Positions 5,701 through 61,215 of a stretch of 64,000 nucleotides of DNA are shown here, one piece after another. The position numbers and the translations under genes were made by a program. The stretch is from the human T2T-CHM13v2.0 reference genome, Homo sapiens: NCBI RefSeq assembly GCF_009914755.1, contig NC_060935.1. One strand, given 5' to 3'. The notes under the pieces were generated by a model, which saw only the letters and a program-made list of their open reading frames with translations, was not told the DNA's origin and did not search any database. Position 1 is the stretch's first letter. Every line of letters begins with the position of its first letter.

Positions 5701-6518
5701 CAGAAGCCAAAATTGACAAATGGGATCTAATTAAACTCAAGAGCTTCTGCACAGCAAAAGAAACTACCATCAGAGTGAACAGGCAACCTACAAAATGGGA
5801 GAAAATTTTCGCAACCTACTCATCTGACAAAGGGCTAATATCCAGAATCTACAATGAACTCAAACAAATTTACAAGAAAAAAACACACAACCCCATCAAC
5901 AAGTGGGCGAAGGACATGAACAGACACTTCTCAAAAGAAGACATTTATGCAGCCAAAAAACACATGAAAAAATGCTCATCATCACTGGCCATCAGAGAAA
6001 TGCAAATCAAAACCACAATGAGATACCATCTCACACCAGTTAGAATGACAATCATTAAAAAGTCAGGAAACCACAGGTGCTGGAGAGGATGTGGAGAAAT
6101 AGGAACACTTTTACACTGTTGGTGGGACTGTAAACTAGTTCGACCATTGTGGAAGACAGTGTGGCAATTCCTCAGGGATCTAGAACTAGAAATACCATTT
6201 GACCCAGCCATCCCATTACTGGGTATATACCCAAAGGACTATAAATCATGCTGCTATAAAGACACATGCACACGTATGTTTATTGCGGCATTATTCACAA
6301 TAGCAAAGACTTGGAACCAACCCAAATGTCCAACAATGATAGACTGGATGAAGAAAATATGGCACATATACACCATGGAATACTATGCAGCCGTAAAAAA
6401 TGAGGAGTTCATGTCCTTTGTAGGGACATGGATGAAATTGGAAATCATCATTCCCAGTAAACTATCGCAAGGACAAAAAACCAAACACCGCATATTCTCA
6501 CTCATAGGTGGGAATTGA
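2724..6518 (+). pseudogene. L1 ORF2p (endonuclease/RT), disrupted
   Basis: [11 protein letters not shown] start and FADD RT motif present. Deletion/replacement in the EN domain near 2798-2812, frameshifts and stops (3185, 3607, ~3931), and a small insertion near 4966-4983. Confidence 0.92.
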
Positions 6519-6754
6519 ACAATGAGAACACATGGACACAGGAAGGGGAACATCACACTCTGGGGACTGTTGTGGGGTGGGGGGAGTGGGGAGGGATAGC
6601 ATTAGGAGATACACCTAATGCTAAATGACGAGTTAATGAGTGCAGCACACCAGCATGGCACATGTATACACATGTAACTAACCTGCACATTGTGCACATG
6701 TACCCTAAAACTTAAAGTATAATAATAATAATAAAATTAAATTAAATTAAAAAA

Positions 6755-7147
6755 AAGAAAATGTGGCACACATACACCATGGAATACTATGCAGCCATAA
6801 AAAAGGATGAGTTCATGGCCTTCGTAGGGACATGGATGAAGCTGGAAACCATCATTCTCAGCAAACTGTCGCAAGGACAAAAAACCAAACACTGCATGTT
6901 CTCACTGATAGGTGGGAATTGAACAATGAGAACACATGGACACAGGAAGGGGAACATGACACAACGGGGACTGTTGTGGGGTTGGGGGAGGGTGGAGGGA
7001 TAGCATTAGGAGATATACCTAATGCTAAATGACAAGTTAATGGGTGCAGCACAGCAACATGGCACATATATACATATGTAACAAACTTGCACGTTGTGCA
7101 CATGTACCCTAAAACTTAAAGTATAATAATAATAATAATAATAATAA
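6755..7147 (+). mobile_element. Host L1 A, downstream part (ORF2 end, 3'UTR, (AAT)n tail)
   Basis: Resumes exactly at the duplicated aagaaaatgtggc. Older-type 3'UTR (gaagctggaaacc, gcatgttctc, aacaaac). Followed by the outer TSD. Confidence 0.93.
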
Positions 7148-57169: not shown

Positions 57170-60100
57170 ATGACAGGATCAAATTCACACATAACAATAT
57201 TAACTTTAAATGTAAATGGACTAAATGCTCCAATTAAAAGACACAGACTGGCAAGTTGGATAAAGAGTCAAGACCCATCAGTGTGCTGTATTCAGGAAAC
57301 CCATCTCATGTGCAGAGACACACATAGGCTGAAAATAAAAGGATGGAGGAAGATCTACCAAGCCAATGGAAAACAAAAAAAGGCAGGGGTTGCAATCCTA
57401 GTCTCTGATAAAACAGACTTTAAACCAACAAAGATCAAAAGAGACAAAGAAGGCCATTACATAATGGTAAAGGGATCAATTCAACAAGAGGAGCTAACTA
57501 TCCTAAATATATATGCACCCAATACAGGAGCACCCAGATTCATAAAGCAAGTCCTGAGTGACCTACAAAGAGACTTAGACTCCCACACATTAATAATGGG
57601 AGACTTTAACACCCCACTGTCAACATTAGACAGATCAACGAGACAGAAAGTCAACAAGGATACCCAGGAATTGAACTCATCTCTGCACCAAGTGGACCTA
57701 ATAGACATCTACAGAACTCTCCACCCCAAATCAACAGAATATACGTTTTTTTCAGCACCACACCACACCTATTCCAAAATTGACCACATAGTTGGAAGTA
57801 AAGCTCTCCTCAGCAAATGTAAAAGAACAGAAATTATAGCAAACTATCTCTCAGACCACAGTGCAATCAAACTAGAACTCAGGATTAAGAATCTCACTCA
57901 AAACCGCTCAACTACATGGAAACTGAACAACCTGCTCCTGAATGACTACTGGGTACATAATGAAATGAAGGCAGAAATAAAGATGTTCTTTGAAACCAAC
58001 GAGAACAAACACACAACATACCAGAATCTCTGGGACGCATTCAAAGCAGTGTGTAGAGGGAAATTTATAGCACTAAATGCCCACAAGAGAAAGCAGGAAA
58101 GATCCAAAATTGACACCCTAACATCACAATTAAAAGAACTAGAAAAGCAAGAGCAAACACATTCAAAAGCTAGCAGAAGGCAAGAAATAACTAAAATCAG
58201 AGCAGAACTGAAGGAAATAGAGACACAAAAAACCCTTCAAAAAATCAATGAATCCAGGAGCTGGTTTTTTGAAAGGATCAACAAAATTGATAGACTGCTA
58301 GCAAGACTAATAAAGAAAAAAAGAGAGGAGAATCAAATAGACACAATAAAAAATGATAAAGGGGATATCACCACCGATCCCACAGAAATACAAACTACCA
58401 TCAGAGAATACTACAAACACCTCTACGCAAATAAACTAGAAAATCTAGAAGAAATGGATACATTCCTTGACACATACACTCTCCCAAGACTAAACCAGGA
58501 AGAAGTTGAATCTCTGAATAGACCAATAACAGGAGCTGAAATTGTGGCAATAATCAATAGTTTACCAACCAAAAAGAGTCCAGGACCAGATGGATTCACA
58601 GCCGAATTCTACCAGAGGTACAAGGAGGAACTGGTACCATTCCTTCTGAAACTATTCCAATCAATAGAAAAAGAGGGAATCCTCCCTAACTCATTTTATG
58701 AGGCCAGCATCATTCTGATACCAAAGCTGGGCAGAGACACAACCAAAAAAGAGAATTTTAGACCAATATCCTTGATGAACATTGATGCAAAAATCCTCAA
58801 TAAAATACTGGCAAACCGAATCCAGCAGCACATCAAAAAGCTTATCCACCATGATCAAGTGGGCTTCATCCCTGGGATGCAAGGCTGGTTCAATATACGC
58901 AAATCAATAAATGTAATCCAGCATATAAACAGAGCCAAAGACAAAAACCACATGATTATCTCAATAGATGCAGAAAAAGCCTTTGACAAAATTCAACAAC
59001 CCTTCATGCTAAAAACTCTCAATAAATTAGGTATTGATGGGACGTATTTCAAAATAATAAGAGCTATCTATGAGAAACCCACAGCCAATATCATACTGAA
59101 TGGGCAAAAACTGGAAGCATTCCCTTTGAAAACTGGCACAAGACAGGGATGCCCTCTCTCACCGCTCCTATTCAACATAGTGTTGGAAGTTCTGGCCAGG
59201 GCAATCAGGCAGGAGAAGGAAATAAAGGGTATTCAATTAGGAAAAGAGGAAGTCAAATTGTCCCTGTTTGCAGACGACATGATTGTTTATCTAGAAAACC
59301 CCATCGTCTCAGCCCAAAATCTCCTTAAGCTGATAAGCAACTTCAGCAAAGTCTCAGGATACAAAATCAATGTACAAAAATCACAAGCATTCTTATACAC
59401 CAACAACAGACAAACAGAGAGCCAAATCATGAGTGAACTCCCATTCACAATTGCTTCAAAGAGAATAAAATACCTAGGAATCCAACTTACAAGGGATGTG
59501 AAGGACCTCTTCAAGGAGAACTACAAACCACTGCTCAAGGAAATAAAAGAGGATACAAACAAATGGAAGAACATTCCATGCTCATGGGTAGGAAGAATCA
59601 ATATCGTGAAAATGGCCATACTGCCCAAGGTAATTTACAGATTCAATGCCATCCCCATCAAGCTACCAATGACTTTCTTCACAGAATTGGAAAAAACTAC
59701 TTTAAAGTTCATATGGAACCAAAAAAGAGCCCACATCGCCAAGTCAATCCTAAGCCAAAAGAACAAAGCTGGAGGCATCACACTACCTGACTTCAAACTA
59801 TACTACAAGGCTACAGTAACCAAAACAGCATGGTACTGGTACCAAAACAGAGATATAGATCAATGGAACAGAACAGAGCCCTCAGAAATAACGCCGCATA
59901 CCTACAACTATCTGATCTTTGACAAACCTGAGAAAAACAAGCAATGGGGAAAGGATTCCCTATTTAATAAATGGTGCTGGGAAAACTGGCTAGCCATGTG
60001 TAGAAAGCTGAAACTGGATCCCTTCCTTACACCTTATACAAAAATCAATTCAAGATGGATTAAAGATTTAAACGTTAGACCTAAAACCATAAAAACCCTA

Positions 60101-60499
60101 GAAGAAAACCTAGGCATTACCATTCAGGACATAGGCGTGGGCAAGGACTTCATGTCCAAAACACCAAAAGCAATGGCAACAAAAGCCAAAATTGACAAAT
60201 GGGATCTAATTAAACTCAAGAGCTTCTGCACAGCAAAAGAAACTACCATCAGAGTGAACAGGCAACCTACAACCTGGGAGAAAATTTTCGCAACCTACTC
60301 ATCTGACAAAGGGCTAATATCCAGAATCTACAATGAACTCAAACAAATTTACAAGAAAAAAACAAACAACCCCATCAAAAAGTGGGCAAAGGACATGAAC
60401 AGACACTTCTCAAAAGAAGACATTTATGCAGCCAAAAAATACATGAAAAAATGCTCATCATCACTGGCCATCAGAGAAATGCAAATCAAAACACTATGA
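57170..60499 (+). CDS. L1 ORF2p truncated at 1109 aa (EN and RT open, C-terminal Cys-rich domain lost)
   Basis: Open frame through EN and the FADD RT motif. 1-nt deletion near 60492 (aaaacactatg). The remaining C-terminus lies in frame 60382-60954 and also ends early (TAA at 60952-60954). Confidence 0.88.
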
Positions 60500-61215
60500 G
60501 ATACCATCTCACACCAGTTAGAATGGCAATCATTAAAAAGTCAGGAAACAGCAGGTGCTGGAGAGGATGTGGAGAAATAGGAACACTTTTACACTGTTGG
60601 TGGGACTGTAAACTAGTACAACCATTGTGGAAGTCAGTGTGGCGATTCCTCAGGGATCTAGAACTAGAAATACCATTTGACCCAGCCATCCCATTACTGG
60701 GTATATACCCAAAGGACTATAAATCATGCTGCTATAAAGACACATGCACACGTATGTTTATTGTGGCATTATTCACAATAGCAAAGACTTGGAACCGACC
60801 CAAATGTCCAACAATGATAGACTGGATGAAGAAAATGTGGCACATATACACCATGGAATACTATGCAGCCATAAAAAAGGATGAGTTCATGTCCTTTCTA
60901 GGGACATGGATGAAATTGGAAACCATCATTCTCAGTAAACTATCGCAAGAATAAAAAACCGAACACCGCATATTCTCACTCATAGGTGGGAATTGAACAA
61001 TGAGATCACATGGTCACAGGAAGGGGAATATCACACTCTGTGGACTGTGGTGGGGTGGGGGGAGGGGGGAGGGGTAGCATTGGGAGATATACCTAATGCT
61101 AGATGACGAGTTAGTGGGTGCAGCACACCAGCATGGCACATGTATACATATGTAACTAACCTGCGCAATGTGCACATGTACCCTAAAACTTAAAGTATAA
61201 TTAAAAAAAAAAAAA

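What the first reader, a model, noticed from the sequence alone, without database searches (positions are those of the whole stretch)
6341..60840. Both inserted L1s have lost the very target site they used (T>G at the base next to the nick)
Seen: the hosts read gactggatT|aagaaaa (T589, T55165). Both nested elements read gactggatG|aagaaaa (G6350, G60828), so ORF2 reads DWMKK. Known (from memory): the human L1 ORF2p consensus is DWIKK. The change is at position -1 of the cleavage site and turns bottom-strand TCTT/AA into TCTT/CA, a poor EN substrate. The same substitution in two elements of different subfamilies is unlikely by chance. Inference: (i) EN nicks at this hotspot are resolved either by insertion or by conversion toward the uncleavable allele, a 'hotspot-paradox'-like drive between neighbouring copies; or (ii) an L1 sub-lineage carrying this variant is self-immune and preferentially lands in T-allele copies, perhaps because an RNA:DNA mismatch falls at the nick.
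Basis: partly seen in the sequence, partly recalled or inferred. Interest (0 to 1): 0.8.

Follow-up and report, generated by a model that had tools for sequence, protein, structure and literature searches.

The report
Regional G allele shared by neighbouring L1s
The two nested L1 elements really do carry the same rare base change, but it marks a local group of seven neighbouring L1 copies on chromosome 11 rather than immunity of the insertion site, and it most likely spread between neighbours by DNA copying (gene conversion).

Summary
Both hosts read GGATT|AAGAAAA (T589, T55165). Both full-length nested L1s read GGATGAAGAAAA (G6350, G60828; ORF2 ...DWMKK...). Each sits at the same nick site with its own target-site duplication.

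The proposed link to nesting fails. I examined 100 of the 106 genome-wide insertions at this exact site. Of the 55 L1 inserts that reach the position, 53 read T. The only two G copies are the window's.

G is rare: 218 copies against 15,050 T. But the two elements belong to a cluster of seven G-bearing L1PA3/L1PA2-stage copies in 340 kb of chr11, out of 58 such copies genome-wide. The seven differ in length, orientation and duplications, and span successive subfamily stages. The two-variant haplotype 594G+625G occurs four times in the genome, all in this cluster.

Neighbour-shared rare variants are enriched for AT-to-GC changes. Neighbour sharing is also seen for variants far from the nick.

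Best reading (about 0.5): GC-biased non-allelic gene conversion among neighbouring L1s. The drive is weakened because other changes beside the nick show no excess.

The parts
144..602 (+). Host L1 no. 1, 5' part. It is a 5'-truncated ORF2 fragment of the older 'GT' class. The outer duplication copy lies at 144-163. T589 is the -1 base of the nick. The inner duplication copy AAGAAAATGTGGC lies at 590-602.
603..6754 (+). Nested full-length L1 n1 (~6.15 kb). It is an early (L1PA3-to-L1PA2 transitional) stage and carries the ~125-nt 5'UTR segment. It has an A-rich tail. G6350 gives Ile>Met.
6755..7167 (+). Host L1 no. 1, 3' part. It starts with the second copy of the inner duplication (6755-6767) and ends with a poly(A) and the outer duplication copy (7148-7167).
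54444..55183 (.). Host L1 no. 2, 5' side. The outer duplication copy lies at 54444-54461. An inverted L1 segment covers ~54457-55098. The sense part covers ~55097-55183 and holds T55165 and the inner duplication copy at 55166-55183.
55184..61215 (+). Nested full-length L1 n2 (~6.03 kb). It is a late (L1PA2-like) stage and lacks the ~125-nt 5'UTR segment. G60828 gives Ile>Met. It also carries the rare 594G at 60797 (aaccGaccc).
61216..61613 (+). Host L1 no. 2, 3' part. It starts with the second copy of the inner duplication (61216-61233) and ends with a poly(A) and the outer duplication copy (61596-61613).

Best explanation
Two L1s of different evolutionary stage inserted independently, by ordinary target-primed reverse transcription, into two older L1 copies. 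Both used a recurrent endonuclease site (top strand TT|AAGA) near the 3' end of ORF2.

Their shared T>G (Ile>Met) is not a consequence of that insertion site. It is a regional allele. Seven L1PA3/L1PA2-stage copies spread over 340 kb (chr11:14.72-15.06 Mb of the assembly) carry it. They include both orientations, four full-length copies and three truncated ones.

The most likely mechanism is non-allelic gene conversion between neighbouring, highly similar L1 copies after insertion. Heteroduplex repair is biased towards G/C, so AT-to-GC variants such as this one spread locally.

Shown here: the nested anatomy, the rarity of G, the cluster, the region-exclusive haplotype, the incompatible (mosaic) variant patterns, the AT-to-GC bias and the lack of association with nesting. 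Inferred: that the transfer happened at the DNA level after insertion, and its direction.
For: 1. Cluster. The pattern 'G allele + young-class marker' gives 58 hits genome-wide. Seven lie at C11:14,723,754-15,061,008. The uniform expectation is 0.006 hits. P is about 8e-20, and about 9e-11 even at 20-fold local density.

2. Independent insertions. The seven span 6.0, 6.15, 6.0, 6.15, 3.2, 2.05 and 1.9 kb of L1 and lie in both orientations. Three of the five fetched copies have their own clear duplications.

3. Different stages. In the last 1 kb, n1, L123 and L124 are early, L122 is intermediate, and L125, L121 and n2 are late. Forty-nine sites split {n1, L123} from {n2, L121} over 6 kb. One retrotransposing lineage therefore cannot explain a shared G.

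4. Further local sharing.
- 594G, 31 nt from the site, is in n2, L122, L123 and L125.
- The 46-mer with 594G+625G occurs 4 times in the genome, all here.
- 594G+625T occurs 27 times, one of them inside the cluster (L141).
- 4292C occurs 38 times, four of them in C11:14.53-14.95 Mb.
- 4495C occurs 32 times, including L121 and L123.

5. Mosaicism. All four allele combinations occur for 176C/594G and 594G/625G.

6. Identity runs round the site among 594G carriers are 322, 235, 208 and 133 nt, at 3-4% divergence (P about 0.001-0.03).

7. AT-to-GC bias.
- Neighbour-shared rare variants: 13 of 20 are AT-to-GC, against 194 of 507 singletons (Fisher P=0.016).
- Doubletons: 8 of 11 between neighbours against 64 of 163 between distant copies (P=0.032).

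8. Not segmental duplication. Nine of nine neighbour pairs sharing G have unrelated 3' flanks.

9. Published rates make this plausible. Harpak et al. (bioRxiv 10.1101/135152; abstract and passages read) estimate 2.5e-7 per nucleotide per generation, a mean tract of 250 bp and a 67.3% bias to G/C.
Against: 1. Too many transfers. At the published rate one expects about one conversion per site among eight copies in about 10 My (my estimate). G reaching seven copies needs six or so transfers, so this site looks like an outlier.

2. The rest of each element is not homogenised. Forty-nine stage-diagnostic differences between early and late copies survive. Pairwise distances among local copies (2.2-4.5%) resemble those to unrelated copies.

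3. No simple tracts. L121 and L123 share the rare variants 4292C and 4495C, plus 3333C and 5287C, whose genome-wide frequency I did not count. These are interleaved with unshared diagnostic sites only 15-108 nt away. The tracts would have to be very short or patchy.

4. For n1 itself the identity run round the site is only 39 nt. Its G could have another origin.

5. The distances involved (34-89 kb between adjacent copies, both orientations) exceed the <10 kb reported for Alu homogenisation (Aleshin and Zhi 2010, as cited in PMC6598467, passage read).

6. No ape orthologues could be examined, so the timing of G relative to insertion is unknown.

Only one is known (L141).
Confidence: 0.5

Rival explanations
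1. Local co-descent. G-bearing source elements, perhaps the resident full-length copies themselves, repeatedly placed progeny close by. Alternatively, bursts of insertions landed on one haplotype and were fixed together. Either way the cluster would be a family by descent rather than by DNA exchange.
For: - Four of the seven cluster members are full-length.
- The region holds at least eight young-class copies where 0.8 is expected.
- Several subsets share more than one variant along the element: n1+L123 share 162C and 176C, and L123+L124 share five sites.
- Local copies are each other's nearest relatives for the early-stage members even with the site removed.
- The genome-wide excess of G (218) and of the synonymous C (103) over neighbouring non-synonymous changes (23, 57, 22) shows that G-bearing sources did retrotranspose.
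Against: - The members sit on successive stage backbones. They differ at 49 diagnostic sites and by the ~125-nt 5'UTR indel. A side lineage could not acquire these by descent.
- The variant patterns are mutually incompatible.
- No local re-insertion preference of L1 is known to me (recalled, not searched).
- G copies elsewhere do not carry the local markers: 594G is found in 0 of 78 sampled copies elsewhere.
Confidence: 0.2
2. L1 endonuclease nicks at this intra-L1 hot spot are repaired from a neighbouring L1. T copies keep being nicked and G copies are not. G would then spread among neighbours as in the recombination-hotspot paradox.
For: - The site is a real, heavily used nick site, with 106 junctions genome-wide.
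- T>G at the base beside the nick is 9.5 times as common as T>G at the adjacent T (218 against 23). It is also commoner than the transition at the same base (103).
- Among the variant lists I read, G shows the largest local groups, 7 and 4.
- 594G lies 31 nt away on the side that 5'-to-3' processing from the nick would replace, and it co-occurs with G in four copies.
- The shared identity runs extend mainly to that side: 63-298 nt against 23-69 nt.
- A published proposal holds that L1 endonuclease nicks are mutagenic (bioRxiv 10.1101/108290, passage read).
Against: - A DNA-level drive should be blind to coding. Yet only the tolerated changes are in excess: 625G (Ile>Met) and 625C (synonymous). 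626 A>T removes the T 5' of the nick and makes a stop codon; it has 22 copies. 624 T>G and T>C have 23 and 57.
- Neighbour sharing is as strong for 4292C (11 of 38), which lies far from any nick.
- None of the other 53 L1s nested at the site carries G.
- One of about 28 visible used targets has G at -1 (L002).
- G is only 0.78% of young copies.
- Other neighbour pairs share variants on both sides of the site.
Confidence: 0.12
3. A G-bearing, self-immune L1 sub-lineage preferentially lands in T-allele L1 copies at this site.
For: Both nested elements of the window carry G and both hosts carry T.
Against: - 53 of 55 L1s nested at the site read T. Without the window it is 53 of 53.
- In the 64-sequence tree (19 G rows: 17 fetched copies plus n1 and n2), G copies scatter among 45 T copies, and no other variant is linked to G by more than 0.35.
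- The other five G copies of the cluster are absent from the list of insertions at this nick site, and their BLASTed flanks show no host L1.
Confidence: 0.02
4. Coincidence. Two independent post-insertion T>G mutations, or two unrelated G-bearing progeny, happen to lie 54 kb apart.
For: Over all 55 nested L1s, 2 G is not significant against 1.43% (P=0.19).
Against: - Seven G copies lie in 340 kb (P below 1e-10).
- The double haplotype is exclusive to the region.
Confidence: 0.03

Closest known systems
Insertion hot spots inside transposed elements (Levy, Schwartz and Ast 2010, PMC2836564; abstract and passages read)
   Same: Retroelements nest at fixed positions of older elements, in the sense orientation, at endonuclease-like sites. 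That paper lists AluSx hot spots at positions 5824 and 6142 of L1MB3.
   Different: Here the inserts at one site are mostly L1s (66 L1 plus 7 L1-with-extra-tail against 19 Alu, of 100 examined). I did not check whether this position is one of theirs. I did not open their supplementary tables.
Homogenisation of neighbouring Alu elements by non-allelic gene conversion (Aleshin and Zhi 2010, known to me only as cited in Fawcett and Innan 2019, PMC6598467, passages read)
   Same: Independent insertions that lie close together share variants. There are mosaic diagnostic patterns across subfamilies.
   Different: The elements here are 2-6 kb L1s spaced 34-89 kb apart, not Alus within 10 kb. One allele reached seven copies.
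Non-allelic gene conversion in human gene duplicates (Harpak et al., bioRxiv 10.1101/135152; abstract and passages read)
   Same: GC-biased transfer between paralogues that slows as they diverge. The rate is high enough to matter over millions of years.
   Different: That work concerns duplicated genes with shared flanks. Here the paralogues are dispersed repeats. No contiguous 250-nt tracts can be shown for most of the shared variants.
Recombination-hotspot paradox (PRDM9 motif erosion; recalled, no paper read)
   Different: Neither the cut preference nor the direction of conversion was shown here, and other changes at the nick are not in excess.
Proposed mutagenicity of L1 endonuclease nicks, NTT[A>T]AAA (bioRxiv 10.1101/108290; passage read)
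   Same: A base change right at the TT|AA nick of an endonuclease target.
   Different: That signature is A>T on the other side of the nick. The matching change here (626 A>T) is at background, 22 copies.

Membership tests
Target-primed L1 insertion (endonuclease-dependent) | A-rich tail, a flanking direct duplication of 7-20 nt, and a target resembling TT|AAAA on the top strand | tested here: met
   n1 has a 13-nt duplication and n2 an 18-nt duplication. Both poly(A) tails run into AAGAAAATG..., and the target is TT|AAGA.
Target-primed L1 insertion (endonuclease-dependent) | Independent events rather than one duplicated composite | tested here: met
   The 5' junctions, duplication lengths, tails and outer host duplications all differ. 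The host 3' parts are 92.1% identical.
L1PA3 / L1PA2 subfamily assignment | Curated diagnostic positions (Dfam/RepeatMasker), including the ~129-nt 5'UTR segment lost within L1PA3 (recalled) | tested here: inconclusive
   No repeat library was available. Stages were defined operationally from 64-85 aligned copies and from the ~125-nt indel. The subfamily names are my recollection.
Non-allelic gene conversion between dispersed repeats | Rare variants shared by physically close copies that are independent insertions | tested here: met
   Seven of 58 G-young copies lie in 340 kb. 594G+625G is 4 of 4 local. Nine of nine pairs have unrelated flanks.
Non-allelic gene conversion between dispersed repeats | Mosaic or incompatible variant patterns across copies of different subfamily | tested here: met
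   All four allele combinations occur for 176C/594G and 594G/625G. Nine non-CpG-decay sites among the four full-length copies contradict the stage split: 3333, 4292, 4495, 5287 (A>C, which creates a CpG), 3275, 3423, 3558, 4996 and 5611 (A>G, which creates a CpG).
Non-allelic gene conversion between dispersed repeats | Contiguous converted tracts | tested here: inconclusive
   Identity runs are 133-322 nt among 594G carriers. For n1 the run is 39 nt, and the variants shared by L121 and L123 are interleaved with unshared sites.
Non-allelic gene conversion between dispersed repeats | Bias towards G/C alleles | tested here: met
   13 of 20 against 194 of 507 (P=0.016), and 8 of 11 against 64 of 163 (P=0.032). 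The samples are small.
Non-allelic gene conversion between dispersed repeats | The change is seen after insertion when orthologous loci of other species are compared | not testable with these tools
   No primate genomes are held.
Endonuclease-immune allele with hotspot-paradox drive | The G allele resists L1 endonuclease | not testable with these tools
   This needs a cleavage assay. One used target with G at -1 exists (L002), but the order of events is unknown.
Endonuclease-immune allele with hotspot-paradox drive | G enriched among L1s nested at the site | tested here: not met
   Two of 55, both in the window. None of the other 53 carries G.
Endonuclease-immune allele with hotspot-paradox drive | Other changes at the nick are also in excess | tested here: not met
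   626 A>T has 22 copies, 624 T>G has 23 and 624 T>C has 57. By comparison 625 T>G has 218 and 625 T>C has 103.

The most novel reading that the evidence does not exclude
L1 endonuclease nicks at this intra-L1 hot spot seed short, one-sided, template-directed repair from neighbouring L1 copies. T copies keep being nicked and G copies do not. The uncleavable G, with the linked 594G on the processed side, therefore ratchets through local groups of L1s. This would be a hotspot-paradox-like drive acting between paralogues rather than between alleles.
Probability: 0.1. Interest if true: 0.85.

Novelty: new variant of a known kind. Interest (0 to 1): 0.5.

Why it matters
Dating, subfamily assignment and source tracing of L1s assume that copies evolve independently once inserted. 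A rare allele was carried onto seven neighbouring copies of different stage. In addition, 9-33% of the carriers of seven of the eight rare-variant lists I read (none of 22 in the eighth) have a same-variant neighbour within 100 kb. Together these suggest that young L1s exchange sequence locally, tens of kilobases apart. That would blur such inferences. It would also mark regions where L1 pairs stay similar enough for ectopic recombination.

It also gives a concrete, testable locus for two questions. Does L1 endonuclease nicking feed gene conversion? Is the spread simply GC-biased repair?

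Tried and rejected
1. Segmental duplication of a host+insert composite. Rejected: the outer duplications, inner junctions and tails all differ.

2. The 'host' as a 5' or 3' transduction carried from one source locus. Rejected for the same reasons.

3. A single G clade. A FastTree of 64 copies with the site removed scatters the 19 G rows among 45 T rows. No other variant is linked to G by more than 0.35.

4. Products of reverse-transcriptase template switching at the internal A-rich site. 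Host and insert differ by more than 7% in 33 of 62 cases, and by 11-12% in the window. Most are therefore true nestings.

5. The nick-mutagenesis signature. 626 A>T has 22 copies, which is background.

6. The apparent third nested G (L024). This was an alignment artefact across the junction; the string GGATGAAG is absent from it.

7. The divergent patch in L141 (655-765). I asked whether it was a conversion from an older L1. It does not match the older class, so the changes are private.

8. The variants 3275C, 3423C and 3558C shared by n2 and L123. 3275C is common (1,054 copies), so it is ordinary lineage polymorphism and not evidence of exchange.

9. A census of all L1s in chr11:14.66-15.13 Mb. 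I fetched only L141 afterwards.

11. One search was a mistyped pattern and its result is meaningless. One search repeats it correctly.

12. Literature searches for L1-specific neighbour homogenisation listed nothing on L1. This is not proof of absence, because subscription journals are not searched.

Full report
**Anatomy**

The window holds two composite L1 loci 54.5 kb apart, both on the + strand.

At the first locus a 5'-truncated older L1 runs from the outer duplication at 144-163 to the one at 7148-7167. A full-length L1, n1 (603-6754), interrupts it.

At the second locus an older L1 with a 5' inversion runs from the outer duplication at 54444-54461 to the one at 61596-61613. A full-length L1, n2 (55184-61215), interrupts it.

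Each insert ends in an A-rich tail that runs into AAGAAAATG.... Each is flanked by its own direct repeat:
- n1: AAGAAAATGTGGC, 13 nt
- n2: AAGAAAATGTGGCACATA, 18 nt

So both used the same bottom-strand nick (top strand GGATT|AAGAAAA) but different second-strand cuts. The 5' ends and tails of the inserts differ too. The two host 3' parts are 92.1% identical. These are four separate retrotransposition events, not a duplicated composite.

**The observation**

Hosts read T at 589 and 55165. Inserts read G at 6350 and 60828. Translation gives DWIKK in host 1 and DWMKK in n2.

**How rare is G?**

The assembly can be searched by pattern. I counted variants of the 29-mer around the site:

| Variant | Copies | Coding effect |
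|---|---|---|
| 625 T (reference) | 15,050 | Ile |
| 625 T>G | 218 | Ile>Met |
| 625 T>C | 103 | synonymous |
| 624 T>G | 23 | Ile>Ser |
| 624 T>C | 57 | Ile>Thr |
| 626 A>T | 22 | Lys>stop |

I then added a marker 88 nt downstream that separates younger copies from older ones.
- Young class: G 58 against T 7,344, which is 0.78%.
- Older class: G 164. I did not count the matching T.

So G is rare, and two G copies in one window are not expected by chance. G is also about nine times as common as a control transversion. But the excess is confined to coding-tolerated changes: Ile>Met and the synonymous C. The other three changes are at background. This pattern fits modest amplification from G-bearing sources better than a DNA-level process that is blind to coding.

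**Is G tied to nesting at this site?**

The junction string (seven A, then GAAAATGTGGCACA) occurs 106 times. I fetched about 1 kb around 96 of the 100 listed places. I added the two window loci and two loci fetched earlier, which makes 100 examined. The six unlisted places were not seen.

The inserts are:

| Insert at the junction | Number of 100 |
|---|---|
| L1 ending directly at the junction | 66 |
| Alu | 19 |
| L1 3' end followed by extra sequence and a second tail | 7 |
| Short or other | 8 |

Of the 66 L1s, 11 are too short to reach the site. Of the other 55, 53 read T and 2 read G. One apparent G (L024) is an alignment artefact across the junction. The two G copies are n1 and n2.

I also looked at the host's own 5' copy of the target where it is visible, about 28 loci. 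About 16 read T, about 10 read A, one reads C and one reads G (L002, a G host carrying a T insert).

Nothing links G to nesting at this site, and G hosts are not visibly avoided. The numbers are small, however, and the order of events is unknown.

**What the two G copies belong to**

The list of the 58 'G + young' copies shows seven in one stretch of chr11:

| Position in C11 | Strand | Name | L1 length |
|---|---|---|---|
| 14,723,754 | - | L121 | 6.0 kb, full-length |
| 14,762,342 | + | n1 | 6.15 kb, full-length |
| 14,816,820 | + | n2 | 6.0 kb, full-length |
| 14,905,765 | - | L122 | 1.9 kb |
| 14,946,476 | + | L123 | 6.15 kb, full-length, with the same ~125-nt 5'UTR segment as n1 |
| 14,980,666 | + | L124 | 2.05 kb |
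| 15,060,905 | + | L125 | 3.2 kb |

L121, L123 and L124 have their own clear duplications. The junctions of L122 and L125 are less clear. The chance of seven of 58 falling in 340 kb is below 1e-10 even at 20-fold local L1 density.

The seven are not one family by descent. In the last 1 kb, n1, L123 and L124 are early, L122 is intermediate, and L125, L121 and n2 are late. Over 6 kb, 49 sites split {n1, L123} from {n2, L121}.

Yet they share further rare variants:
- 594G, 31 nt upstream of the site, is in n2, L122, L123 and L125.
- The 46-mer with 594G+625G occurs four times in the genome, all here.
- 594G with T625 occurs 27 times, one of them inside the cluster (L141).
- 4292C occurs 38 times, four of them within C11:14.53-14.95 Mb.
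- 4495C occurs 32 times, including L121 and L123.

The patterns are mutually incompatible. All four allele combinations occur for 176C/594G and for 594G/625G. Among the 594G carriers, identity runs round the site are 322, 235, 208 and 133 nt at 3-4% divergence. For n1 the run is only 39 nt.

**A general tendency**

I read the place lists by eye and counted carriers that have a same-variant neighbour within 100 kb:

| Variant list | Carriers with such a neighbour |
|---|---|
| G + young class | 19 of 58 |
| 4292C | 11 of 38 |
| 4495C | 4 of 32 |
| 625C | 10 of 100 listed |
| 624C | 6 of 57 |
| 624G | 2 of 23 |
| 594G + T625 | 4 of 27 |
| 626T | 0 of 22 |

Random assignment among L1 copies would give well under 1% (my estimate).

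Some of these groups are surely segmental duplications. Examples are six alternating copies at C11:4.33-4.41 Mb and the acrocentric short arms. I did not check those. But all nine G-sharing neighbour pairs that I fetched have unrelated 3' flanks.

In my roughly 85-copy alignment of the last 1 kb, neighbour-shared rare variants are AT-to-GC in 13 of 20 cases, against 194 of 507 singletons (P=0.016). Doubletons shared by neighbours are AT-to-GC in 8 of 11 cases, against 64 of 163 shared by distant copies (P=0.032).

**Interpretation**

The best-supported reading is non-allelic, GC-biased gene conversion among neighbouring, highly similar L1 copies. The published estimates make transfers between such copies plausible over about 10 My: 2.5e-7 per nucleotide per generation, 250-nt tracts and a 67.3% bias towards G/C (bioRxiv 10.1101/135152, passages read). 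Homogenisation of neighbouring Alus is in print; I know it only as cited in PMC6598467.

The reading has real weaknesses:
- G reached seven copies while 49 stage differences stayed intact.
- Several shared variants are interleaved with unshared sites 15-108 nt away.
- For n1 there is no tract evidence.

Local co-descent remains possible, but it cannot by itself put one allele on three stage backbones. Supporting it, four of the seven are full-length, and at least eight young copies lie where 0.8 is expected.

In its favour are the size of the G groups, the linked 594G on the side that 5'-to-3' processing from the nick would replace, and the one-sided identity runs. Against it are the background counts of the other changes at the nick, the equal neighbour sharing far from the nick, and the lack of G among the other 53 nested L1s.

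**Limits**

- No repeat library was available. The names L1PA2 and L1PA3, the recalled ~129-nt 5'UTR deletion and the endonuclease preference list come from memory.
- No primate orthologues could be examined.
- Only the first 100 places of long lists are shown.
- The supplementary tables of PMC2836564, which may list this very hot spot, were not opened.

Noticed in passing
Genome-wide; window 590-602 and 55166-55183 are two instances: The nick site GGATT|AAGAAAATG in the ORF2 3' end is a recurrent sense-orientation insertion site, with 106 junctions. Of 100 examined, 66 inserts are L1, 7 are L1 with extra tail sequence and only 19 are Alu. That is an L1:Alu ratio near 3.5-4 to 1, where I would expect Alu to dominate. 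Host and insert differ by more than 7% in 33 of 62 cases, so most are true nestings.
   Followed up: partly
L001:6877-7190 (C11:14,901,877-14,902,190, about 85 kb beyond n2): This is a third use of the same nick site in the neighbourhood. An Alu sits in an old L1 that reads GAATAAAGAAAATGTG (A allele), with the duplication AAGAAAATGTG.
   Followed up: yes
L002 (C6:102,598,100-102,605,000, minus strand): A host L1 reads G at the -1 base of the used target. It carries a 5'-truncated L1 insert that reads T, with the duplication (A)AGAAAATGTGGCAC. Either the G allele can be cut or the host mutated later.
   Followed up: partly
L024 (C1:106,463,026-106,464,046): A young L1 insert at the same site has its 5' end inside the very same motif (host ...GGATTAAGAAAATGTG | insert ATTAAGAAAATGTGGCAC...). 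It also has about 100 nt of extra sequence and a second poly(A). This looks like microhomology joining plus a 3' transduction.
   Followed up: no
L141 (C11:14,851,950-14,853,150), ref positions 655-765 of the L1: Seven private substitutions lie within 110 nt: three A>G, one T>C, one A>T, one C>T and one G>A. They do not match the older L1 class. This may be an editing-like cluster.
   Followed up: partly
window 948-1127; 54868-56040: The RefSeq 'silencer' lies inside the 5'UTR of n1. The two 'enhancer' intervals cover the inverted host segment, the junction and the 5'UTR of n2. These functional-element calls are therefore L1 5'UTR sequence (hub annotation; coordinates).
   Followed up: no
window 567 and 55143 (aaccaaGccaaatg in both hosts): Both hosts share a C>G variant 22 nt upstream of the nick-adjacent T. 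The 29-mer carrying it occurs 837 times genome-wide, in marked regional groups, for example nine in C1:165.45-166.10 Mb. It is probably a sub-lineage marker in L1-rich deserts. This was not analysed further.
   Followed up: partly
C11:4,333,166-4,414,956: Six older-class G-allele L1 copies lie in strictly alternating orientation within 82 kb. They look like a duplicated or palindromic array. Flanks were not fetched.
   Followed up: no
cluster copies, n2 positions 3333-5287 and ref 162-594: Most variants shared by only two to five of the cluster copies (rarity confirmed genome-wide only for 594G, 4292C and 4495C; 176C is about 7% in my sample; 3333C and 5287C not counted) change A or T to C or G. 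Several are A>C transversions (162, 176, 270=5287, 4495), which is normally the rarest substitution class.
   Followed up: partly
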